Shown: in pieces, positions 13,237-44,887 of the stretch
Position numbering within the stretch: position 1 is the first letter of the stretch
Layout of the letters: the number at the start of each line of letters is the position of its first letter
DNA from: a virus
Taxonomy: Duplodnaviria > Heunggongvirae > Uroviricota > Caudoviricetes
DNA: 64,000 nt
IMG/VR virus record: IMGVR_UViG_2724679538_000004
Location: 45,799 to 109,798 of that record
Reading direction: 5' to 3' (one strand)
Made by a program: the position numbers and the translations under genes
Notes under the pieces: model-generated
Seen by the model: the letters and a program-made list of their open reading frames with translations, nothing else
Database searches by the model: none
Told to the model about the DNA's origin: nothing

Positions 13237-13335
13237 TCTGTCTGGGAGTGTTCTTGGACCTGCTTCTGTATAAATAAATACATACTAATATATTAATATA
13301 CAGATGCAGGTTTTTTGTAGCAAACGTGCCAGACC
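13237..13335. repeat. nested-hairpin element (outer GTCTGGG/CCAGAC, inner AT-rich CCTGCTTCTGTATA/TATACAGATGCAGG, T-run)
   Basis: Read directly; a paralogous element lies at 42805-42903. Confidence 0.5.
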
Positions 13336-37464: not shown

Positions 37465-37761
37465 TTACGGTAGCCTGCTAAGGATTTCGTCCAGATCTTC
37501 CTTAGTCAAATTTGAGTTTTCATAAATCTGCATAATCCTTTCGCGAGCTTTAGCAGAAGCTTTTGCAGTTGCGCCCAAAGAAGAAGCAATTTTGTCAAAC
37601 TCGGCCATCGGCATCTTTTCAAGTACAACATTGATGATTTCAGACTTTGACAGTTTTAGGTTTTTGTCTTTCAGTTTGGCTTTAAATTTTGTTAGTTTGT
37701 TGTTCGCCTGTTCAGTTAATGCGACCTGACAATACGTTGTTTTTTTCTCGCTCATAGTCAA
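37465..37761 (-). CDS. small DNA-binding-like protein (possible ribbon-helix-helix)
   Basis: N-terminal strand-then-helix pattern (TTYCQVALTEQANNKL); ATGA-coupled to the helicase gene. Confidence 0.35.
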   Translation of the reverse strand: MTMSEKKTTYCQVALTEQANNKLTKFKAKLKDKNLKLSKSEIINVVLEKMPMAEFDKIASSLGATAKASAKARERIMQIYENSNLTKEDLDEILSRLP

Positions 37762-39317
37762 TCTCGTTTCAAAATCCCAAAATCAAAAGTACCACCTACT
37801 GGCAAAACGCCTTCCGCAAAACCTGGTGTTGTATCGATAATATGCTTCCGTTCGTAAGAATGAGACAGTAAGTATTTATTACTAACGTCAATAAAATCAC
37901 TGATAAAGCACACATTGGCTTGATTTTTCTTGGCTCGAAGGCCGCGACCAACACGTTGCCTCATCTCAACTTCGGCCTTTCCACCACCAGCCAGAATCAC
38001 TGCCCCAACACTCGGTACATCAACACCAACATCCAGAATAGTCGACCCTATTAAAACATCTATTTCGCCGGACGCTAAACTATTCAATTTTGCTTGCCTT
38101 GTCGATTGGTTGGACTCGCCATAAATGAAGTCAACTTTCAGACCGGACTCCTTCATCATTTCCATTAAGATCTGCCCGTGGCGCTTAAGGCGAACTAGAG
38201 TCATACAGTTCAGAGAATGCTTTTTATACATTAACGCTTCTCGAACTATGGCCTCGTTACGACTTAGATTATATACGATCCCCAACTGATAAGCCTTTTG
38301 GTAGGCGGTACTCATGCCAACCCTAAAATTTAGATGCTTATTAGCGAGTTCAGCCTTGATTCGTGCCTCGTCTGGAATGTAGGCAATTTTATGATAGAGG
38401 AAGTATGGTTTGGCCAAAATACCTTTATCAATTAGATATTTTTCTGTGACCTTGATTTCTATGCGACCAGCCACGGCCATCAGGCGCATGTTGGCTTCGG
38501 TAGAGTCCTTCATGAAAGGGGTTGCAGTCAGCGCAAGACGATAATCTGCGTTCACACAAAGACGGGCGATATCATAGAAGTTGGAGCCGGAAGACTCATG
38601 GGCTTCTTCAAGAATGAGAAGAGAAACGCTAGAAAGAAAGCGCTTTACCAAATCTCGGCGTTTTAGATGGTAGTTTTTCTTATCTGCCGATGCGTCTCGT
38701 GGCGGCTCTTCAAGGAAGCTTGCCAATGTCTGTACCGTGGCGACGTTGATATGACGTGAAACCTGAAACTCACCAGATCCAATTACTCCAACTTTCTGAC
38801 CTTTTAGCCATGATTCGCCATTTTCTGCACGGTAATCGATAGATTTCTGAAAGTTTTCTGCCATTTGATACATCAGAACAGAACGAGTGGTTAAAAATAG
38901 CGTCATGCGGCCAATTCTTGCAGCTGCTTTACATGCAACGTTAGATTTCCCGCCACCAGTTGCGATCTGCGCAATCATCATCCCTTCTCGTACTAGAGTT
39001 TCTACCGTCTGATCCTGATATGCATAATCTGGGTTATATGGGAAAGGGTTAACAACTGGGTTTGGTTTCCCAAGTGCAGGGGCTTTGTCCTTTCGAATAT
39101 GTAAGCATTTGATGCCTGCTTTATTCAGATTCGAGGCTACAGGCTTCGCGAATCCAGCGGGGAACGAGTTTTTGCTCCAGTTGAACATGGTGCTTGTGCC
39201 TTTCCAATCACCAGCTTCAACTTCATAGCTCAGCATCTCTTGCACGAGTCGTTTTACATTGTCATCAGCGCCAGAAATCAGTGCGTTTACAGCATTAGAT
39301 ACAATCCGAACTGTCAT
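37758..39317 (-). CDS. superfamily-2 DEAD/DEAH-type helicase
   Basis: Motif I ATGGGKS, motif II LEEAHE, motif III TATP, motif VI QRVGRGLR. Confidence 0.8.
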   Translation of the reverse strand: MTVRIVSNAVNALISGADDNVKRLVQEMLSYEVEAGDWKGTSTMFNWSKNSFPAGFAKPVASNLNKAGIKCLHIRKDKAPALGKPNPVVNPFPYNPDYAYQDQTVETLVREGMMIAQIATGGGKSNVACKAAARIGRMTLFLTTRSVLMYQMAENFQKSIDYRAENGESWLKGQKVGVIGSGEFQVSRHINVATVQTLASFLEEPPRDASADKKNYHLKRRDLVKRFLSSVSLLILEEAHESSGSNFYDIARLCVNADYRLALTATPFMKDSTEANMRLMAVAGRIEIKVTEKYLIDKGILAKPYFLYHKIAYIPDEARIKAELANKHLNFRVGMSTAYQKAYQLGIVYNLSRNEAIVREALMYKKHSLNCMTLVRLKRHGQILMEMMKESGLKVDFIYGESNQSTRQAKLNSLASGEIDVLIGSTILDVGVDVPSVGAVILAGGGKAEVEMRQRVGRGLRAKKNQANVCFISDFIDVSNKYLLSHSYERKHIIDTTPGFAEGVLPVGGTFDFGILKRD

Positions 39318-39361: not shown

Positions 39362-39385
39362 AATAAGTAAGTGCTTATCTAATGG
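39362..39385. promoter_or_regulatory. copy of recurrent palindrome in a divergent intergenic region (AATAAGTAAGTGCTTATCTAATGG)
   Basis: Lies between the minus-strand helicase and the plus-strand ParB-like gene. Confidence 0.35.
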
Positions 39386-40080
39386 ATTGTATCAGCAAAA
39401 TGGATGTGAAAATCACGATTTTGCAGGTTGAAGTGGCCAACCTGCGTCCAAATTCATGGAACACCAACTCAGTAGGTGCTCAAAACTTCGAAAAACTGAA
39501 AGGATCTATCGAAAAATTGGGCTTTTTTAAGCCTATTTTGGCGCGTGAGCTTAATGACGGCATTTATGAAATCCTCGGCGGCGAACATCGCTGGCGTGCG
39601 GCCATTGAACAAGGAATTTCAACGGTTCCAGTGCTATCGGTTGGCAAAATTAGCGACTTAGTAGCGAAACAGATGTCACTCGTGGACAACGAACGCTACG
39701 GCGAAGACGATCAGATTGCTTTGCAGCGCTTTATTGAAGAAATTCAGTCTGAACTCGATTACCAGTTGTCAGAAATTGCCCCTTATGACGATGAAATTTC
39801 TATGGTTCTTGCAAAAGAGGCTGCAATTGACCTCGAAGCTCTTGAGGCACTGTCGCGTGGGGAGGATGAGCCTGTAGATACTGACAAGCGTGAAAAAATC
39901 GAACGCGCCGGAACAGATCATCAGACCATGCGTTTCAAAGTTACCTTTGATGCGTCAGATCGTGTTGCCGACACAATAAAAAACATCATCAAAGAACAAG
40001 CAATTAACACTGGCAATGAAATGGAGAACGCTGGTGAGGCTTTGGTGTGGCTGGTCGACTACTACAAGGAGCGTATGTAA
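39382..40080 (+). CDS. ParB-like nuclease-domain protein 1
   Basis: ILGGEHRWRAA matches the ParB/Srx box (GxxRxxA). Confidence 0.65.
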   Translation: MDCISKMDVKITILQVEVANLRPNSWNTNSVGAQNFEKLKGSIEKLGFFKPILARELNDGIYEILGGEHRWRAAIEQGISTVPVLSVGKISDLVAKQMSLVDNERYGEDDQIALQRFIEEIQSELDYQLSEIAPYDDEISMVLAKEAAIDLEALEALSRGEDEPVDTDKREKIERAGTDHQTMRFKVTFDASDRVADTIKNIIKEQAINTGNEMENAGEALVWLVDYYKERM

Positions 40081-40748
40081 TGACCAAAAAGTTTGAAATC
40101 GTATATCGCAATCCGGCAGATCTCATTCCTTACGAGATGAATGCCAAAAAGCATGATGAACAGCAGATCCGAGATCTGGCCGCAGCCATTAAAAAGCGCG
40201 GATTTGACCAGCCAATTACGGTCGATAAGAACGACGTAATTATTACTGGCCACGGCCGCCGTGAGGCTGCAATTTTTGCTGGGCTTGAGCGCGTACCAGT
40301 TATTGTTCGCGATGATCTGAGTGATGACGAGGTTCGTGCGAAGCGCCTTGAAGATAACCGACTCGCCAGCATTGATTACGATGCAATTAAGCTACAGAAA
40401 GAGCTTGAGTCGCTTGTTCTGGACGATATCGAGGTTTTCGGCTTTGAAGAGCGAGAGTTGAATGTTCTCGTTGGCAGCATGACTGAGGAAATGGATACCG
40501 ACTCGTTAGTTATCGATCTGGGCGAAGAAACCAAACGACAGAAGGATGAGCACACCGAAATCAGTCGTGAAGTTGCAGCGGAAGAAGTGCGCGTTGTCGA
40601 CGTATTGGGCTTTAAAACGCTCCCTGCTGGCTCTGCCATTGTTGTTGGTGATTTGCTTGCCCACATGGAAGAAATGACTGGAGAAAGCGGGGTAGACGCA
40701 TTTGTGGCATATGCGGAGAAGATCTCTTCCGGGGAGATGACTGCATGA
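40080..40748 (+). CDS. ParB-like nuclease-domain protein 2
   Basis: ITGHGRREAAIFAG ParB box; TAATG coupling with AAGGAG RBS. Confidence 0.65.
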   Translation: MTKKFEIVYRNPADLIPYEMNAKKHDEQQIRDLAAAIKKRGFDQPITVDKNDVIITGHGRREAAIFAGLERVPVIVRDDLSDDEVRAKRLEDNRLASIDYDAIKLQKELESLVLDDIEVFGFEERELNVLVGSMTEEMDTDSLVIDLGEETKRQKDEHTEISREVAAEEVRVVDVLGFKTLPAGSAIVVGDLLAHMEEMTGESGVDAFVAYAEKISSGEMTA

Positions 40749-41383
40749 GCAAATACATCATCAACGTATCGTTTCAGACTCGCGTAAATAAAACCACGCG
40801 CACGTTGGAAATCGCCGAGTCGTTCGGGCTTGGCCTTGACGAAAAAGAGTGGACGCTTTACGACAATCTGGAGCTGGAAGTTAAGCAGGGCGATGTAGTG
40901 TACATCACCGGCCAATCCGGTTCAGGCAAATCAGTTGTGCTGCGCGAACTGCAACGCCAGATGAAAGATGAAGGGCTTTCTGTGGCCTCCATCGATGATT
41001 TTACATTCGACAATGATGTTAACGTCATCGACCAGCTAGGGAAAACAACCAGCGAAGCGCTGGGGCTGCTGTCTATGGCCGGATTGAATGACGCCTATCT
41101 CTTTGTGCGCAAACCTTCCGAAATGTCTGACGGTCAGAAATATCGTCTCAAGATCGCCAAGCTAATTGAGTCAGGCGCAAAAGTGTGGGCTGCGGACGAG
41201 TTCGGTGCTGTTCTTGATCGTGTAACGGCGCAGGTCGTGGCGTCCAATCTACAGCGTGCAGCCCGTAAAGTTGGGGCGACGGTGATGGTTGCGACAACTC
41301 ATGAGGACCTTAAAAACGCTCTTCGTCCTGATATGCAGATCACTAAGCACTATAAAGAGCGAGTGAAGGTGGAATATGCCTGA
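40745..41383 (+). CDS. small ABC-type ATPase
   Basis: Walker A GQSGSGKS, signature-like SDGQKYR, Walker B AADEFG, H-loop TTHE; ATGA coupling. Confidence 0.6.
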   Translation: MSKYIINVSFQTRVNKTTRTLEIAESFGLGLDEKEWTLYDNLELEVKQGDVVYITGQSGSGKSVVLRELQRQMKDEGLSVASIDDFTFDNDVNVIDQLGKTTSEALGLLSMAGLNDAYLFVRKPSEMSDGQKYRLKIAKLIESGAKVWAADEFGAVLDRVTAQVVASNLQRAARKVGATVMVATTHEDLKNALRPDMQITKHYKERVKVEYA

Positions 41384-41630
41384 TTTGAAGATTGTAGAGC
41401 TGAAGCCATCGAAAGAGGATGACAATAACAATGTTGAGGTCATCCGCTTGCTGGAAGAAGCACTCCAGTACGCCAGAGAAGGCAAATCCCAGAGTCTGGC
41501 GCTGCTGATGATCAATAACGACGGCAGTGTCATGGATTGCTGGCATAACGGTGGGCGTCCTTACGTCATGGTTGGGGCGATGGAATCGCTTCGCCTGGAC
41601 TTCATCAATGCCAATATAGAGCGCAGGTGA
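41376..41630 (+). CDS. hypothetical small protein
   Basis: 84-aa ORF overlapping the ATPase gene. Confidence 0.4.
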   Translation: MPDLKIVELKPSKEDDNNNVEVIRLLEEALQYAREGKSQSLALLMINNDGSVMDCWHNGGRPYVMVGAMESLRLDFINANIERR

Positions 41631-41635
41631 TCGAC

Positions 41636-42526
41636 ATGACAGACATCATCATCAAACGCTACCGCCTTGAAGAGTTTCCGCGTCATCTGGACTTTCTGGA
41701 GCGAATGACTGTCACAAAGGGGACTGTAGAGGACTGGCACGCTCTTAAGTCGCTTCACTACAAAACTGACGGCAAACCTTTCGCACCAACTTATTATCGC
41801 TGCGAACTGGATGGCCGTCTGGTGGGCGTCGTGGTAATGGCTTACCCGAAACTTTTGCTGGCACCTCGCCATCGCATGTTTCCTAAGTTGAAACCAACCA
41901 CTAACACCACCGTGGCGAACCAGTACTGGGGGCGATACGTGAATAACAACTTTGCGGTGATCAGTCGCTCAGTTGTGGATACTCAGTACCGTGGCGTTGG
42001 CGTCTCTTATCGAATGATTAACCTGGTTAGCAGGATGCATGATCGGCCAATAATTGAGATCCAGTCCTCAATGAGCAAATACAATCCCTTCGCCATGAAA
42101 GCAGGGTTCAAGTTCATCCGCCCTGAGCGACCGAAGAGCTATGAAAGTGCACTGCGTGTGTTCCAGCGCCATTTCCGCTCCGACCCGGGAGATAACGAGG
42201 CGATCGTCAAAGAGTTGTTCGCAATGAGCGAGTCCCGTCGTCGCCGTGCACTGCGTGATCTGGTGGCGGACTACCACAAGAACAGTTCCCTGGCAAAAGC
42301 TGGGCGGAATCGTGGCACGACGATTCAGGACATTGCCGACAGTCTCGTGGACGAGGCCAGCATAGTGAAGCTGCTCAAGGACATTCACAACCTGAGCTTT
42401 ACGTCTCCGTTGTATGGTGTGTACCGAAACCCTGACTTTGGCCGTCGACTGCCTGATTCGCTGCCACTGCTGGCATTCGACAAACAACCTTTGGATAAAC
42501 CGTTAGAAATTGCTTTACCGGCATAA
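41636..42526 (+). CDS. GNAT-like acyltransferase-fold protein (putative)
   Basis: VVDTQYRGVGVSYRMINLV resembles GNAT motif A (Q/R-x-x-G-x-G/A). Confidence 0.45.
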   Translation: MTDIIIKRYRLEEFPRHLDFLERMTVTKGTVEDWHALKSLHYKTDGKPFAPTYYRCELDGRLVGVVVMAYPKLLLAPRHRMFPKLKPTTNTTVANQYWGRYVNNNFAVISRSVVDTQYRGVGVSYRMINLVSRMHDRPIIEIQSSMSKYNPFAMKAGFKFIRPERPKSYESALRVFQRHFRSDPGDNEAIVKELFAMSESRRRRALRDLVADYHKNSSLAKAGRNRGTTIQDIADSLVDEASIVKLLKDIHNLSFTSPLYGVYRNPDFGRRLPDSLPLLAFDKQPLDKPLEIALPA

Positions 42527-42535
42527 GGATTTGCC

Positions 42536-42802
42536 ATGACGTTAACCGATAAACAAAAGGACATTATCAAAACGCTCAATCTCGGTTATGAACGAGGACA
42601 TCTACTTGATCTGGACGAATTGCTTGAAGTTTTGCCCTACAAAACATCTAAGCAAAGTATCCAGTTCTCTATTCGCGCACTGATCAAAAAAGGGCTGGTG
42701 GAGAAAGGAAACACTCGCCAGCGCAGTGATACTCGATATCACCGTCGTACTCTTGGGTTAACTACTTTAGGTCGAGCACGAGCCAAATTACTGGTGATGT
42801 AA
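42536..42802 (+). CDS. small basic protein, possible winged-helix DNA-binding
   Basis: 88-aa basic ORF. Confidence 0.35.
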   Translation: MTLTDKQKDIIKTLNLGYERGHLLDLDELLEVLPYKTSKQSIQFSIRALIKKGLVEKGNTRQRSDTRYHRRTLGLTTLGRARAKLLVM

Positions 42803-42804
42803 TA

Positions 42805-42903
42805 GGTCTGGGGTGCTTATTTAAAGCCTGCGTCTGTATATATAAATAATAAATAACTTATTAAATATATACGGAAGCAGGTTCAATAAGACACGCCCAG
42901 ACC
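42805..42903. repeat. nested-hairpin element paralogous to 13237-13335
   Basis: Outer GGTCTGGGG/CCCAGACC, inner CCTGCGTCTGTATATATA/TATATACGGAAGCAGG. Confidence 0.5.
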
Positions 42904-42917
42904 TAATTTGACACCCC

Positions 42918-42964
42918 AGAAAACAAGTTGGTTAGTGAATGCAATAAACAAGTTGTTTTAGAGC
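42918..42964 (+). promoter_or_regulatory. two copies of the promoter/operator family motif
   Basis: CAGAAAACAAGTTGGTTAG and AATAAACAAGTTGTTTTAGAG. Confidence 0.4.
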
Positions 42965-42998
42965 GCATGGACGCGCTCTGTGTGTTTTAGAGGGATCT

Positions 42999-43631
42999 AT
43001 GACTGTCGAAAAAGACGAGGGAAAAACTCGCCTGACACCAGCGGAGTGGGCCGAAGCAGAAGCCAAATGGACGTCAGGCGAATATACACTCTCAAAGCTG
43101 GAGGAAGAGTACGGCATTCGCCGTGAAACACTCTCCAGACATTTCAAAAAGCGAGGATTGGAGAAAGGCGCAGACTCTGTTGGGAAGATGGTTCGCGAGT
43201 CTCTCAAATCTGACGCAGAGCTTCGTGCTAAAGCCCGTGCAGAAAAGATAGAAGAACGTCGTACACGTTATGACGGCTGGGCATATGCCTTGGGGCAGAT
43301 GGTGATGGTCGAAGTCACTACTGCTAAACGTGAGGGAAAACCTTTAGGGGGGATTGAGGATTCTCTTAAGAGCTTACAGAGAGCAAGTAATACCCTTGCA
43401 AAATGCTTTGAAATTTCGTCCAAAGCGTTGGGCATGGATCATGCGGAAAATGACGAGGAAGAAATTCCTAACCTGGTATTTGGCGAACTTACGCCTTCTC
43501 AGGTGGCGAAATTACGTCAGGAAGACGATGAGCCTGAAATCATCGATGACGAATTGCTTGAGGCACTAGAGGAAGAAGCTCTTAGCGAACTGGACGCCAG
43601 TGAGGAGGAGAGCGAAGGGGGAGATAAGTAA
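42999..43631 (+). CDS. terminase small subunit (putative)
   Basis: Immediately upstream of and coupled to the large terminase; acidic C-terminus. Confidence 0.5.
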   Translation: MTVEKDEGKTRLTPAEWAEAEAKWTSGEYTLSKLEEEYGIRRETLSRHFKKRGLEKGADSVGKMVRESLKSDAELRAKARAEKIEERRTRYDGWAYALGQMVMVEVTTAKREGKPLGGIEDSLKSLQRASNTLAKCFEISSKALGMDHAENDEEEIPNLVFGELTPSQVAKLRQEDDEPEIIDDELLEALEEEALSELDASEEESEGGDK

Positions 43632-44887
43632 TGTCGATCCCGTCTTCTCTGAGTCTTGTGCAGCTGCATTCTGGGCAGATGAAGGTGTTCCAGTCGCCAC
43701 ATCGATTTAAGGTGGTATGCGCAGGTCGTCGCTGGGGTAAGTCCAGGTTGTCGATCTCAACCATAATTCGTGCGGCAGCAAAGAGCAAAAAGCAAAGAGT
43801 CTGGTACGTAGCGCCGACCTATCAAATGGCACGCCAGATTCTGTGGGATGACCTACAGGAAGTTCTGCCTCGCAAGTGGGTTCGTAAAAAGAACGACACC
43901 ACGATGACAATCGTGTTGAAGAACGGTTCTGAGATCGCCCTCAAAGGTGCTGATAAACCTGACACTCTGCGCGGCGTAGCGTTGCATTTTGTAGTGCTTG
44001 ATGAATTTCAGGATATGAAGGCTGATACCTGGTACAAGGTATTACGACCTACTCTTTCATCGACACGAGGCGGTGCACTGATCATTGGTACGCCAAAAGG
44101 ATTCTCGGAATTTCACAAACTGTGGACCATCGGCCAGAACATTGAGCTGCAAAGAAAAGGACAGTGGAAGAGTTGGCAGTTTGTTACCGCTGATTCTCCG
44201 TTTGTGCCTACTGCCGAAATCGAAGCGGCAAAGAACGATATGGACCCGAAGTCCTTTGCGCAGGAATACCTGGCCAGCTTCGAAAACATGTCAGGTCGTG
44301 TTTATTACCCGTTTGATCGTAACGTGCATGTGAAGCCACTCCAGTTCAATCCGAAACTACCTATTTGGGTTGGGCAGGATTTCAACATAGACCCGATGTC
44401 TTCTGTAATTTTGCAACCACAGCCAAACGGTGAACTATGGGCAGTTGATGAGTTGGTACTCTTCTCATCAAACACGGCAGAAGTGTGTGACGAACTGGAA
44501 CGACGCTATTGGCGATGGAAATCGCAGGTGACGATTTTTCCTGACCCCGCTGGGGCATATCGTCAGCACGCGCGAGGTGAATCAGATGTCGATATCTTTA
44601 AAGAAAAGGGATTCTTACGTGTTGACTATTCGAAGAAGCACCCGCCGATTGCAGATCGTGTGAATGCTGTAAACCGTATGCTGATGAGCGCATCAGGTGA
44701 AGTTCGTCTCTATGTCGATCCTAAGTGCAAGCACCTCATAGATTCTCTTGAAAAGGTTATCTACAAGCCCGGATCTCGTGACATGGATAAGTCAGGTGGG
44801 GTTGAGCACAGCGCAGACGCATTGGGCTACCCAGTTCATCGTAGGTATCCGGTGAAAAATCGTGTTATTCTTGGTGGATCTAGATAG
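43631..44887 (+). CDS. terminase large subunit
   Basis: Walker A VVCAGRRWGKSRL, Walker B FVVLDEFQD; followed by the portal gene. Confidence 0.75.
   Translation: MSIPSSLSLVQLHSGQMKVFQSPHRFKVVCAGRRWGKSRLSISTIIRAAAKSKKQRVWYVAPTYQMARQILWDDLQEVLPRKWVRKKNDTTMTIVLKNGSEIALKGADKPDTLRGVALHFVVLDEFQDMKADTWYKVLRPTLSSTRGGALIIGTPKGFSEFHKLWTIGQNIELQRKGQWKSWQFVTADSPFVPTAEIEAAKNDMDPKSFAQEYLASFENMSGRVYYPFDRNVHVKPLQFNPKLPIWVGQDFNIDPMSSVILQPQPNGELWAVDELVLFSSNTAEVCDELERRYWRWKSQVTIFPDPAGAYRQHARGESDVDIFKEKGFLRVDYSKKHPPIADRVNAVNRMLMSASGEVRLYVDPKCKHLIDSLEKVIYKPGSRDMDKSGGVEHSADALGYPVHRRYPVKNRVILGGSR

What the first reader, a model, noticed from the sequence alone, without database searches (positions are those of the whole stretch)
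39382..42903. Tandem ParB-like proteins, a small ABC-type ATPase, a GNAT-like protein and a small DNA-binding-like protein in one coupled cluster upstream of the terminase
Two paralogous ParB/Srx-domain proteins (boxes ILGGEHRWRAA and ITGHGRREAAIFAG) are followed by translationally coupled genes: a 212-aa soluble ABC-type ATPase (Walker A, signature-like SDGQKYR, Walker B, H-loop), an 84-aa protein, a GNAT-like protein (QYRGVGVS) and a small basic protein, ending in a structured element (42805-42903) just before the terminase promoter. I do not recognise this combination as a described module. ParB-like proteins in phages have been tied to partition, DNA modification pathways and packaging-associated nucleolysis; an ATPase plus acyltransferase partner would fit a DNA- or protein-modifying, or anti-defence, function. 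Its position next to the terminase suggests coupling to packaging.
Basis: partly seen in the sequence, partly recalled or inferred. Interest (0 to 1): 0.7.

Follow-up and report, generated by a model that had tools for sequence, protein, structure and literature searches.

The report
ParB–ABC–GNAT phage DNA-modification module
This is a conserved gene cluster of SSU5-type phage-plasmids that most likely attaches an acyl group to the phage's own DNA just before packaging; such a system was predicted by computer in 2013 but has never been tested, and these E. coli, Salmonella and Klebsiella phages would make it easy to test.

Summary
The window is an SSU5-like phage-plasmid, and 39382-42905 corresponds to SSU5 gp125-130: two paralogous ParB/Srx N-domain proteins, a soluble ABC ATPase, an 84-aa ORF, a GNAT-fold protein, a winged-helix protein and a 100-bp palindrome, all upstream of terS/terL. 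The combination is not new. The ATPase and the GNAT protein are the two halves of a very large family of fused ABC-ATPase+GNAT proteins (COG2401). Some members also carry a fused ParB domain. In unrelated bacterial and archaeal viruses the gene sits next to ParB genes and/or the large terminase gene. The Aravind group called these ParB–terminase loci and predicted that the GNAT–ABC enzyme puts an uncharacterised acyl modification on a DNA base during packaging. I found no experimental test of this. New here are the split form with an insertion hot spot (the 84-aa ORF is an accessory insert), two conserved ParB paralogues that lack a DNA-binding domain, a conserved wHTH plus long palindrome, and a recurrent pairing with PurN-like formyltransferases at the mom position of Mu-like phages. 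Verdict: a new member of a known but only predicted kind. Moderate interest.

The parts
37758..39317 (-). Divergently transcribed SF2 (DEAD/ResIII + Helicase_C) helicase. It is a conserved neighbour, but whether it belongs to the system is uncertain.
   Evidence: Pfam ResIII 1.9e-15, DEAD 2.9e-15, Helicase_C 2.5e-13. The same divergent position is seen in L083-L085, nickie, RHEph10 and BUCTxx99. An SF2 helicase also lies near ABC-GNAT in Tenacibaculum pT24 and Nonlabens P12024S.
39382..40080 (+). ParB1: an acidic (pI 4.55) ParB/Srx N-domain protein with the motif GGEHRWRAA, an acidic linker and a conserved C-terminal module of about 55 aa.
   Evidence: ParB_N 4.5e-14, phrog_723. Its ortholog profile matches solved Noc/ParB/Spo0J structures only over positions 4-97. 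Invariant G67, H69, D102, N103.
40080..40748 (+). ParB2: the paralogous ParB/Srx N-domain protein, with the motif GHGRR. It is closest to the ParB domains that are fused to phage DNA methyltransferases.
   Evidence: ParB_N 1.4e-08, phrog_930 7e-113, phrog_498 'DNA methyltransferase' 5.8e-32, PADLOC MTase_II 2.3e-17. The profile matches ParB structures only over positions 27-94. Invariant G57 H58 G59 R60 D92 N93.
40745..41383 (+). Soluble ABC-type ATPase with all catalytic motifs intact. It is the N-terminal half of the fused ABC+GNAT family.
   Evidence: ABC_tran 5.3e-13 and motif positions. The fused homolog P0157 aligns to the ATPase and GNAT genes in two pieces in SSU5 and relatives. No protein of the operon has a TM segment.
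41376..41630 (+). 84-aa ORF (phrog_796). It is an accessory gene inserted at the split between the ABC and GNAT genes, not a core part.
   Evidence: Absent in Cyrano and PhiR41_1. In other lineages different small genes occupy this junction: gp49_66, RyR, DUF2829, or none.
41627..42526 (+). Basic (pI 9.8) protein with a GNAT-fold domain (about residues 30-165, motif A YRGVGVS) and a conserved C-terminal helical domain. It is the C-terminal half of the fused ABC+GNAT family. The start is GTG 41627 or ATG 41636.
42536..42802 (+). 88-aa basic winged-helix protein (phrog_900), conserved directly downstream of the GNAT gene throughout the SSU5/Nickievirus/RHEph10 lineage.
   Evidence: Weak Pfam LexA_DNA_bind hit and NCBIfam Lrs14/Sta1 hits. 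AF2 single-sequence pLDDT 70.7. Best PDB matches are the LexA, HrcA and DtxR winged-helix domains, prob 0.99. Orthologs were aligned.
42803..42905 (.). Nested palindrome of about 100 bp with GC-rich outer arms and an AT-rich centre (…CCTGCGTCTGTATATAT…TAAATAACTTA…ATATATACGGAAGCAGG…). It is a candidate protein-loading or cleavage site. Its function is unknown.
   Evidence: Fold z-scores of -11 and -9.7. The core is sequence-conserved and the outer arms covary across 35 distinct SSU5-like variants. Long inverted repeats of unrelated sequence lie at the same place in L083, L084, RHEph10 and BUCTxx99, and in L084 without a terminase downstream. The SSU5 and Cyrano linear records break inside its centre.
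42921..42958 (+). Two copies of the dispersed motif AAACAAGTTG(G/T)TT between the palindrome and terS.
   Evidence: At least 10 copies in the window against 0.16 expected, almost all intergenic and just upstream of + strand genes.
42959..42990 (+). GC hairpin followed by a U-rich run (terminator-like), immediately before the terS ribosome-binding site.
   Evidence: Terminator scan. Conserved in all 35 intergenic variants.
42999..44887 (+). Putative small terminase (210 aa, phrog_867) and large terminase (418 aa). These are the context that defines the locus type.
   Evidence: Terminase_6N 6.2e-09, Terminase_6C, phrog_10250 and phrog_2.

Best explanation
The core of the cluster is a two-gene (split) version of an ATP-gated acyltransferase that acts on the phage's own DNA.

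**Proposed mechanism (inferred)**
1. The ABC ATPase dimerises on ATP, as all ABC modules do.
2. It carries or activates the GNAT subunit. This subunit binds an acyl-CoA, or another activated acyl or aminoacyl donor, through its R-x-x-G-x-G loop.
3. The GNAT subunit transfers the acyl group to an exocyclic amine of a base in double-stranded DNA, after replication.
4. The two ParB/Srx paralogues have the NTP-binding N-domain and a C-terminal module but no recognisable DNA-binding domain. They act as activator or loader subunits that give the enzyme access to dsDNA.
5. The wHTH protein and/or the adjacent long palindrome provide site recognition or regulation.
6. The operon lies directly upstream of terS/terL, so the DNA would be modified shortly before or while it is packaged. 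The likely benefits are protection of incoming DNA from host nucleases and/or marking of DNA for the packaging machinery.

**Shown here:** domain identities, intact catalytic motifs, homology of the split pair to the fused family, ParB+ABC+GNAT fusions, and the conserved neighbourhoods.

**Inferred:** the substrate (DNA base), the donor, the roles of ParB, wHTH and the palindrome, and the biological benefit.
For: 1. **Split of a fused family.** The GNAT protein aligns over its whole length to the post-ABC part of the fused ABC+GNAT proteins (hhalign 99.8%). The profile search found 950 relatives, many of 450-500 aa with ABC_tran at the N-terminus. More than 2000 relatives of one fused member exist in Firmicutes prophages, Bathyarchaeia/Thermoproteota and phages.
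2. **Fusion evidence.** P0310, P0317, P0337 and P0367 fuse ParB_N+ABC+GNAT in one polypeptide.
3. **Recurrent neighbourhood in unrelated viruses.**
   - ParB, then ABC-GNAT, then TerL, in Gordonia Axumite, S. pyogenes 315.4 and Leptospira LE4.
   - TerL a few genes downstream in Desulfofarcimen and Pelotomaculum prophages.
   - TerL ending less than 300 nt upstream in 43 of 68 Bathyarchaeia proviruses.
   - These TerLs are unrelated at BLAST level, so the linkage is not simple co-inheritance.
4. **Nucleic-acid-modification context.** An EVE-domain gene and an N6/N4 methyltransferase, or a type I R-M system, lie next to the archaeal triple fusions. An ASCH gene lies in 315.4 and near the Desulfofarcimen copy.
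5. **Mom-like position.** ABC-GNAT plus a PurN-like formyltransferase sits after the tail genes at the right end of two unrelated Mu-like phage groups, where Mu carries mom. The same pair occurs in Gordonia.
7. **Precedents from papers.** A phage ParB lacking a DNA-binding domain is required by a T-dioxygenase specifically on dsDNA (PMC13229309). DpdB is a ParB-like ATPase working with DpdA (cited in PMC12839542).
Against: - There is no experimental evidence for a modified base in SSU5-like virion DNA. I found no paper that tests this.
- ParB genes are absent from most ABC-GNAT loci: only 3 of 80 archaeal loci have one, and none was found in phiE255, the Porphyromonas phages or pT24.
- The SSU5-type module has none of the auxiliary enzymes or reader domains seen elsewhere. 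I did not search the whole window systematically for ASCH or EVE.
- The module is a syntenic core of a broad phage lineage rather than a variable accessory gene. That is less typical of anti-restriction functions and could point to a role in packaging itself.
- The formyltransferase, amidoligase and GGACT partners would fit modification of a protein amine equally well.
Confidence: 0.5

Rival explanations
1. The ABC+GNAT enzyme acylates a protein, not DNA. The target could be a packaging or virion protein (terminase, portal, capsid) or a host or defence protein. ParB and the wHTH would only tether it near the DNA being packaged.
Against: ParB fusions and the EVE, ASCH, methyltransferase and R-M neighbours point to nucleic acid. 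The position matches that of mom in Mu-like phages. No candidate protein substrate co-varies with the gene, because the neighbouring TerLs belong to unrelated families.
Confidence: 0.2
2. The ParB-like proteins are NTP-regulated nickases or nucleases that help the terminase at the cos/pac site (the palindrome) or degrade host DNA. The ABC+GNAT pair regulates them.
For: The locus is adjacent to terS/terL. The palindrome lies where cos sites usually lie, and the SSU5 and Cyrano linear records break in its centre. Nicking and NTPase activities are reported for several ParB/Srx proteins (reviewed in PMC5512222).
Against: ABC-GNAT, not ParB, is the constant element across viruses. In L084 the module and its palindrome are present without a terminase downstream. 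No nuclease assay exists. The record ends may be arbitrary.
Confidence: 0.1
3. The enzyme acylates RNA (for example a tRNA base), like the ATPase+GNAT enzyme TmcA that makes N4-acetylcytidine.
For: It has the same logic of an NTPase module coupled to a GNAT. From my own knowledge of the family, ASCH domains, seen next to some family members, are linked to N4-acylcytosine chemistry and RNA. The SSU5 lineage encodes tRNAs.
Confidence: 0.07
4. The cluster is a partition or DNA-compaction system for the plasmid prophage, with ParB proteins plus an SMC-like ABC ATPase acting at a parS-like palindrome.
For: There are two ParB-family proteins, an ABC ATPase and a nearby palindrome. Database names such as 'chromosome partitioning protein ParB' follow this reading.
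Against: SSU5 has a separate ParA locus. Similarity to ParB/Noc is confined to the N-domain, and no HTH or ParA partner was found. The ABC ATPase resembles transporter-type NBDs and has no coiled coil. The same genes occur in integrated proviruses and in phages not known to be plasmids.
Confidence: 0.03
5. The genes encode an ABC transporter, as annotated in most database records.
For: Only the ABC_tran Pfam hit and inherited names.
Against: No protein of the operon has a membrane-spanning segment: the maximum Kyte-Doolittle value over 19 residues is 1.46. The second so-called ABC subunit is a GNAT-fold protein.
Confidence: 0.01

Closest known systems
GNAT–ABC ATPase system of phage 'ParB–terminase large subunit (Tls) loci'. 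This is a computational prediction by Iyer, Zhang, Burroughs and Aravind (NAR 2013, not readable here), restated in PMC4738411 sect. 8 and PMC7824862 sect. 3.4.7. It corresponds to COG2401, 'ABC-type ATPase fused to a predicted acetyltransferase domain'.
   Same: Same ATPase and GNAT families. ParB genes are adjacent and the large terminase lies next door. A fused family member also matches Tenacibaculum pT24, the example phage named in the review.
   Different: - Here the enzyme is split into two genes, and other small genes insert at the split.
- There are two distinct, separately conserved ParB paralogues.
- A wHTH gene and a long palindrome are constant extras.
- The kind itself has never been tested experimentally.
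Mom of phage Mu, a GNAT-fold enzyme that makes N6-methylcarbamoyl-adenine in DNA (PDB 8bv8).
   Different: No sequence-level relationship was detected. Mom works without an ATPase or a ParB partner. The SSU5 protein has an extra conserved C-terminal domain.
ParB-dependent phage thymine dioxygenases (5mYOX176/ParB176; PMC13229309), and DpdA/DpdB of the 7-deazaguanine Dpd system.
   Same: A ParB/Srx-family protein that lacks a recognisable DNA-binding domain is paired with a DNA-modifying enzyme. In the 5mYOX case it is needed only on dsDNA.
   Different: The catalytic partner differs: GNAT+ABC here, against a dioxygenase or a transglycosylase. Two ParB paralogues occur here. Nothing has been tested for this pair.
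TmcA / NAT10, RNA cytidine acetyltransferases built from an ATPase plus a GNAT.
   Same: An NTP-hydrolysing module is coupled to a GNAT that acylates a nucleobase amine.
   Different: Those enzymes use a helicase-type ATPase and a tRNA-binding domain, and their substrate is RNA. No sequence similarity was found here.
Chromosomal and plasmid ParABS partition systems and Noc (CTP-dependent ParB clamps).
   Same: The N-terminal ParB/Srx domain carries a GxxR and a (D/E)N motif. Solved Noc, ParB and Spo0J structures are the best sequence matches.
   Different: There is no HTH DNA-binding domain and no ParA partner in the operon. The plasmid's ParA locus lies elsewhere.

Membership tests
ABC-ATPase+GNAT family (COG2401) / ParB–terminase DNA-modification loci | ABC ATPase module with intact Walker A, signature, Walker B and H-loop | tested here: met
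   ABC_tran 5.3e-13. GQSGSGKS 56-63, SDGQ 128-131, VWAADE 147-152, TTH 184-186. The same motifs are invariant in the fused family.
ABC-ATPase+GNAT family (COG2401) / ParB–terminase DNA-modification loci | GNAT domain plus C-terminal extension homologous to that of the fused proteins | tested here: met
ABC-ATPase+GNAT family (COG2401) / ParB–terminase DNA-modification loci | ATPase and GNAT in one polypeptide | tested here: not met
   They are two genes, separated in this window by an 84-aa ORF. They are also separate genes (overlapping, with no intervening ORF) in Cyrano and PhiR41_1. This is a split variant.
ABC-ATPase+GNAT family (COG2401) / ParB–terminase DNA-modification loci | ParB/Srx gene adjacent and large terminase gene nearby | tested here: met
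   Two ParB_N genes lie directly upstream, and terS/terL start 473 and 1105 nt after the GNAT gene's stop codon.
ABC-ATPase+GNAT family (COG2401) / ParB–terminase DNA-modification loci | Acyl modification of a DNA base (the predicted activity) | not testable with these tools
   This needs nucleoside mass spectrometry or enzymology. No experimental report was found in four literature searches.
Mom family (phage Mu DNA methylcarbamoylase) | GNAT-like fold | tested here: met
Mom family (phage Mu DNA methylcarbamoylase) | Sequence-level membership in the family | tested here: not met
   No Pfam, NCBIfam or PDB sequence hit for the GNAT protein or its profile. Other GNATs score as high as Mom structurally.
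ParABS partition ParB / Noc | ParB N-terminal NTP-binding domain | tested here: met
   PF02195 hits. Profile hits to 7ng0, 6t1f, 6sdk and 7bnr.
ParABS partition ParB / Noc | Central HTH DNA-binding domain that recognises parS | tested here: not met
   Profile alignments to solved ParB and Noc stop at about position 97. Nothing matches the HTH region. A fold-level test was not done.
ParABS partition ParB / Noc | Cognate ParA ATPase in the same operon | tested here: not met
   The operon has no ParA. The ParA-like gene of SSU5 (SSU5_033) lies about 30 kb from the terminase genes.
ABC transporter | Membrane-spanning partner or domain | tested here: not met
   Maximum hydropathy over 19 residues is 1.46 or less for all operon proteins.
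TmcA-type RNA acetyltransferase | Helicase-type ATPase domain plus a tRNA-binding domain flanking the GNAT | tested here: not met

The most novel reading that the evidence does not exclude
The module could be a site-loaded, packaging-coupled DNA acylation machine.

- The two ParB/Srx paralogues would load at the conserved 100-bp palindrome next to the terminase genes.
- They would recruit the ATP-gated ABC+GNAT enzyme.
- The genome would then be decorated with a so far unknown N-acyl or N-aminoacyl base (a glycinamide-type adduct, for example) as it is fed to the terminase. In other phages, PurN-like formyltransferases or amidoligases would elaborate that adduct.

If so, the roughly 110-kb phage-plasmids common in clinical Klebsiella, E. 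coli and Salmonella would carry a new kind of DNA base modification, made by a new enzyme class shared by bacterial and archaeal viruses.
Probability: 0.3. Interest if true: 0.75.

Novelty: new member of a known kind. Interest (0 to 1): 0.5.

Why it matters
The ABC-ATPase+GNAT family is very large, with thousands of proteins in tailed viruses of bacteria and archaea. It was predicted more than ten years ago to make a new acyl modification of DNA, yet its chemistry, substrate and purpose are still untested. Most members sit in uncultured or hard-to-handle hosts. The SSU5-type phage-plasmids carry a complete, well conserved version in E. coli, Salmonella and Klebsiella, where knock-outs, heterologous expression, nucleoside mass spectrometry and plating on defence-carrying strains are routine.

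A positive result would:
- add a new DNA base modification and a new enzyme architecture;
- give ParB/Srx proteins a further role outside partition;
- bear on how widespread clinical phage-plasmids escape host defences.

A negative result (a protein target) would still explain a gene that is constantly linked to the terminase. In practice, hundreds of database records name these genes 'ABC transporter' and 'partition protein ParB', and those names are probably wrong.

Tried and rejected
- **ABC transporter annotation: rejected.** No membrane component exists, and the second 'ABC' gene is a GNAT.
- **Partition role: rejected as the main reading**.
- **Defence-system membership: not supported.** PADLOC gave only generic P-loop and ParB-MTase domain hits.
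- **Sequence search of the GNAT profile against PDB:** nothing useful.
- **Rfam and tRNA scans of the window:** no hits, so the palindrome is not a known RNA family.
- **Simple terminator reading of the palindrome: unlikely.** In L084 a separate canonical terminator follows the palindrome, and in the window a separate GC hairpin plus U-run lies downstream.
- **Co-inheritance of ABC-GNAT with one terminase clade: rejected.** The neighbouring TerLs are mostly unrelated by BLAST.
- **Literature:** searches for COG2401/MK0520, for SSU5 genome termini and for an experimentally found acylated phage DNA base returned nothing relevant. The 2013 source paper could not be read.
- **Tools and data limits:**
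  - The afdb50 fold library was unavailable.
  - The viral-contig scans returned only close relatives of their seeds, so I sampled diversity by hand from annotated phage records.
  - The ParB1 homolog search returned only sequences at least 84% identical among the 120 listed, too shallow for a useful structure prediction.
  - I therefore spent the second prediction on the wHTH protein.

Full report
**What the window is.** Region 39382-42903 is 91.5% identical to Escherichia phages CMS-2020a, PhiR41_1 and Cyrano. It is 85% identical to Salmonella phage SSU5, where it corresponds to gp125-gp130. The surrounding 20 kb matches 793 plasmid records, mostly non-mobilizable, of Klebsiella, Escherichia, Enterobacter, Yersinia and Salmonella; the best-matching ones are about 110 kb. 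The window is therefore an SSU5-type phage-plasmid.

| Gene | Coordinates | Key evidence |
|---|---|---|
| ParB1 | 39382-40080 | Pfam ParB_N; separate PHROG family (phrog_723) |
| ParB2 | 40080-40748 | Pfam ParB_N; phrog_930. ATG at 40080 is the likely start |
| ABC ATPase | 40745-41383 | Every ABC motif present |
| 84-aa ORF | 41376-41630 | phrog_796 only |
| GNAT-like | 41627/41636-42526 | No sequence-family hit |
| wHTH | 42536-42802 | pI 10.3; best structural matches LexA/HrcA/DtxR |

- ParB1 and ParB2 are paralogues, 33% identical over 116 residues.
- For the 299-aa GNAT-like protein I built an AlphaFold model from 27 diverse homologs (pLDDT 83.7). It has a GNAT fold over about residues 30-165, followed by a conserved helical C-terminal domain.
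- The invariant R122-x-x-G125 lies in the position of the acyl-CoA pyrophosphate-binding loop.
- Gene junctions overlap or are 9 nt apart.
- The 'structured element' is a nested palindrome of about 100 bp at 42803-42905. Its folding energy lies far outside the shuffled controls.

**What belongs to the module.** I compared loci that are only 41-45% identical in the GNAT protein: Ectothiorhodospira, two metagenomic contigs, Pseudomonas phage nickie, Rhizobium phage RHEph10 and Stenotrophomonas phage BUCTxx99.
- All share the order: helicase (divergent) | ParB1 – ParB2 – ABC – GNAT – wHTH | terS – terL – portal.
- The 84-aa ORF is missing in Cyrano and PhiR41_1.
- In other lineages the ABC/GNAT junction, or the ParB junctions, hold different small genes: gp49_66, RyR, DUF2829, or none.
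- The 84-aa ORF is therefore an accessory insert, and the junction is an insertion hot spot.
- ParB1 and ParB2 are separately conserved orthologous groups with different signature motifs, GGEHR and GHGRR.
- Profiles of both match solved ParB, Noc and Spo0J structures only in the N-terminal NTP-binding domain. No HTH domain was detected.

**The key relationship.** A profile of the GNAT protein searched against 1.8 billion representatives found 950 relatives.
- Many are proteins of 450-500 aa in which the GNAT part occupies the C-terminal half.
- Pfam shows ABC_tran in their N-terminal half and weak Acetyltransf_1/7/10 hits in the C-terminal half.
- Profile-profile comparison aligns the SSU5-type protein with residues 201-461 of such a fused protein (99.8% probability).
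- The fused protein aligns to the ATPase and GNAT genes of SSU5 in two pieces.
- The window therefore carries a split version of the family that sources label 'ABC-type ATPase with predicted acetyltransferase domain' (COG2401).
- More than 2000 relatives of one fused member occur in Firmicutes, in Bathyarchaeia/Thermoproteota and in phages. Four listed members also carry a ParB_N domain in the same polypeptide.
- That fusion links ParB, ABC and GNAT functionally.

**Neighbourhoods elsewhere.**

| Virus or locus | Arrangement |
|---|---|
| Gordonia phage Axumite | ParB-like (gp1), ABC-GNAT (gp2), Formyl_trans_N protein (gp3), terminase (gp4) |
| S. pyogenes prophage 315.4 | ParB, ABC, ASCH, putative small terminase, TerL |
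| Leptospira phage LE4 | ParB-like, ABC-GNAT, …, TerL |
| Desulfofarcimen and Pelotomaculum prophages | ABC-GNAT, Amidoligase_2, GGACT, …, TerL, portal |
| 80 loci, nearly all Bathyarchaeia | Tailed proviruses; TerL (Terminase_6N) ends within 300 nt upstream of ABC-GNAT in 43 of 68 loci with enough flank; often several copies per genome |
| Archaeal triple fusions | Next to an EVE-domain gene plus an N6/N4 methyltransferase, or next to a type I R-M system |
| Burkholderia phiE255 and Porphyromonas phages (two unrelated Mu-like groups) | ABC-GNAT plus a PurN-like formyltransferase after the tail genes at the right end, where Mu has mom |
| Nonlabens phage P12024S and Tenacibaculum pT24 | Gene lies near an SF2 helicase, as in the SSU5 lineage |

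The terminases next to the gene in these groups are mostly unrelated at BLAST level. The linkage to packaging genes and genome ends is therefore maintained independently.

**Published knowledge.**
[quoted passage not shown] It cites Iyer et al., NAR 2013, and names Tenacibaculum phage pT24 (PMC7824862, sect. 3.4.7). A fused family member does match pT24.
- The 2013 paper itself could not be read.
- I found no experimental study of the family.
- Two experimentally grounded precedents for ParB-like partners of DNA-modifying enzymes exist:
  - phage thymine dioxygenases that need a ParB lacking a DNA-binding domain, and only on dsDNA (PMC13229309);
  - DpdB with DpdA (as cited in PMC12839542).

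**Most likely mechanism (inference).** ATP-driven dimerisation of the ABC module positions or activates the GNAT subunit on dsDNA. The GNAT subunit transfers an acyl or aminoacyl group from an activated donor to a base amine. The ParB paralogues act as loader or activator subunits. The operon position upstream of terS/terL would time the reaction with packaging.
- Supporting features are the basic GNAT protein (pI 9.8) next to acidic ParBs (pI 4.55). Mom is also the best viral structural match.
- The recurring PurN-like formyltransferase normally formylates the amine of a glycinamide (established biochemistry of PurN). The amidoligase and γ-glutamyl-cyclotransferase-type partners act on amines.
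- Together these suggest that the primary adduct may carry a free amine. This is speculation.

I put this model at about 0.5. The main rival is a protein substrate, at about 0.2. It cannot be excluded, because the GNAT fold is uninformative about the acceptor and the link to terminase is stronger than the link to ParB.

**The palindrome and the intergenic region.**
- In 35 distinct SSU5-like variants the inner arms and centre (CCTGCTTCCGTATATAT … TAAGTnACTTA … ATATATACGGAAGCAGG) are conserved in sequence.
- The outer arms change in a compensating way.
- Long inverted repeats of unrelated sequence, with GC-rich arms and AT-rich centres, follow the wHTH gene in L083, L084, RHEph10 and probably BUCTxx99.
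- In L084 this holds although no terminase lies downstream.
- The SSU5 and Cyrano linear records both break inside the AT-rich centre. This may reflect a physical end or mere convention, and no data on termini were found.
- The element is thus a conserved DNA-level feature of the module. It could be a cos/pac site, a loading site for the ParB or wHTH proteins, or both. I could not decide among these.
- Downstream lie two copies of a dispersed motif and a terminator-like hairpin directly before terS.

**Verdict.** The cluster is a new (split, two-ParB, wHTH + palindrome) member of a kind that is known only from computational prediction. Its value is as an accessible experimental model for an old untested prediction, not as a new class.

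Noticed in passing
window 5346, 15744, 17299, 27703, 29315, 30502, 31408, 32975, 42921, 42946 (13-nt sites): A dispersed near-palindromic motif, AAACAAnTTGTTT, often preceded by AGA. It has at least 10 copies against 0.16 expected. Almost all are intergenic and 5-50 nt upstream of + strand gene starts, and some abut the Shine-Dalgarno sequence. A similar ACAAGTTGT repeat lies before terS in Pseudomonas phage nickie. It is probably the operator or promoter element of a phage regulator.
   Followed up: partly
window 42803-42905; also 13259-13275 (-): The palindrome core is conserved in sequence while the outer arms covary. The SSU5 and Cyrano GenBank records start and end inside its centre, so it may be the cos/pac site. 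A third copy of the half-site, with 2 mismatches, lies at 13259-13275.
   Followed up: partly
window 41376-41630 and the equivalent junctions in L083, L085, L088, L089: The junction between the split ABC and GNAT genes, and the junctions around ParB2, are hot spots where different small genes are inserted in different lineages: phrog_796, Phage_gp49_66, RyR, DUF2829.
   Followed up: partly
L259 4426-6158 (phiE255 gp29-gp30); L261 4393-5996 (Porphyromonas phage); L095 603-2452 (Gordonia Axumite gp2-gp3): ABC-GNAT is paired with a PurN-like formyltransferase (Formyl_trans_N) in three unrelated phage groups. In the two Mu-like groups the pair sits after the tail genes, where Mu carries mom. Axumite gp3 is annotated 'tRNA-methyltransferase', which looks wrong.
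   Followed up: partly
L091 10542-12328; L092 10522-12344: In Desulfofarcimen and Pelotomaculum prophages the fused ABC-GNAT gene is followed by Amidoligase_2 and GGACT/AIG2 genes, upstream of TerL and portal. This suggests further processing of an amine-bearing adduct.
   Followed up: no
L099-L178 and L179-L258 (mostly Bathyarchaeia): Bathyarchaeia genomes carry many copies of tailed proviruses in which ABC-GNAT is the last gene after TerL. In viral contigs the gene very often lies within a few hundred nt of the contig end.
   Followed up: partly
proteins P0164, P0179, P0191, P0154: Unusual family members: an intein with a LAGLIDADG domain inserted in the ABC module (P0164), N-terminal family-B DNA polymerase fusions (P0179, P0191) and a C-terminal TFIIB repeat (P0154). 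These may be real fusions or gene-calling artefacts.
   Followed up: no
L093 11023-11871; L096 5981-6358: PUA-like 'reader' domains lie next to family members: an EVE-domain protein follows the archaeal ParB-ABC-GNAT fusion, and an ASCH protein lies in S. pyogenes prophage 315.4.
   Followed up: no
window 42959-42990: A GC hairpin plus U-run lies immediately upstream of the terS ribosome-binding site and is conserved in all SSU5-like variants. It may be a regulated terminator controlling late-gene read-through.
   Followed up: no
window 37758-39317 (-): The SF2 helicase (annotated 'UvsW helicase' in Cyrano) is divergently paired with the module throughout the lineage. SF2 helicases also lie near ABC-GNAT in pT24 and Nonlabens P12024S, so it may be a functional partner.
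   Followed up: no
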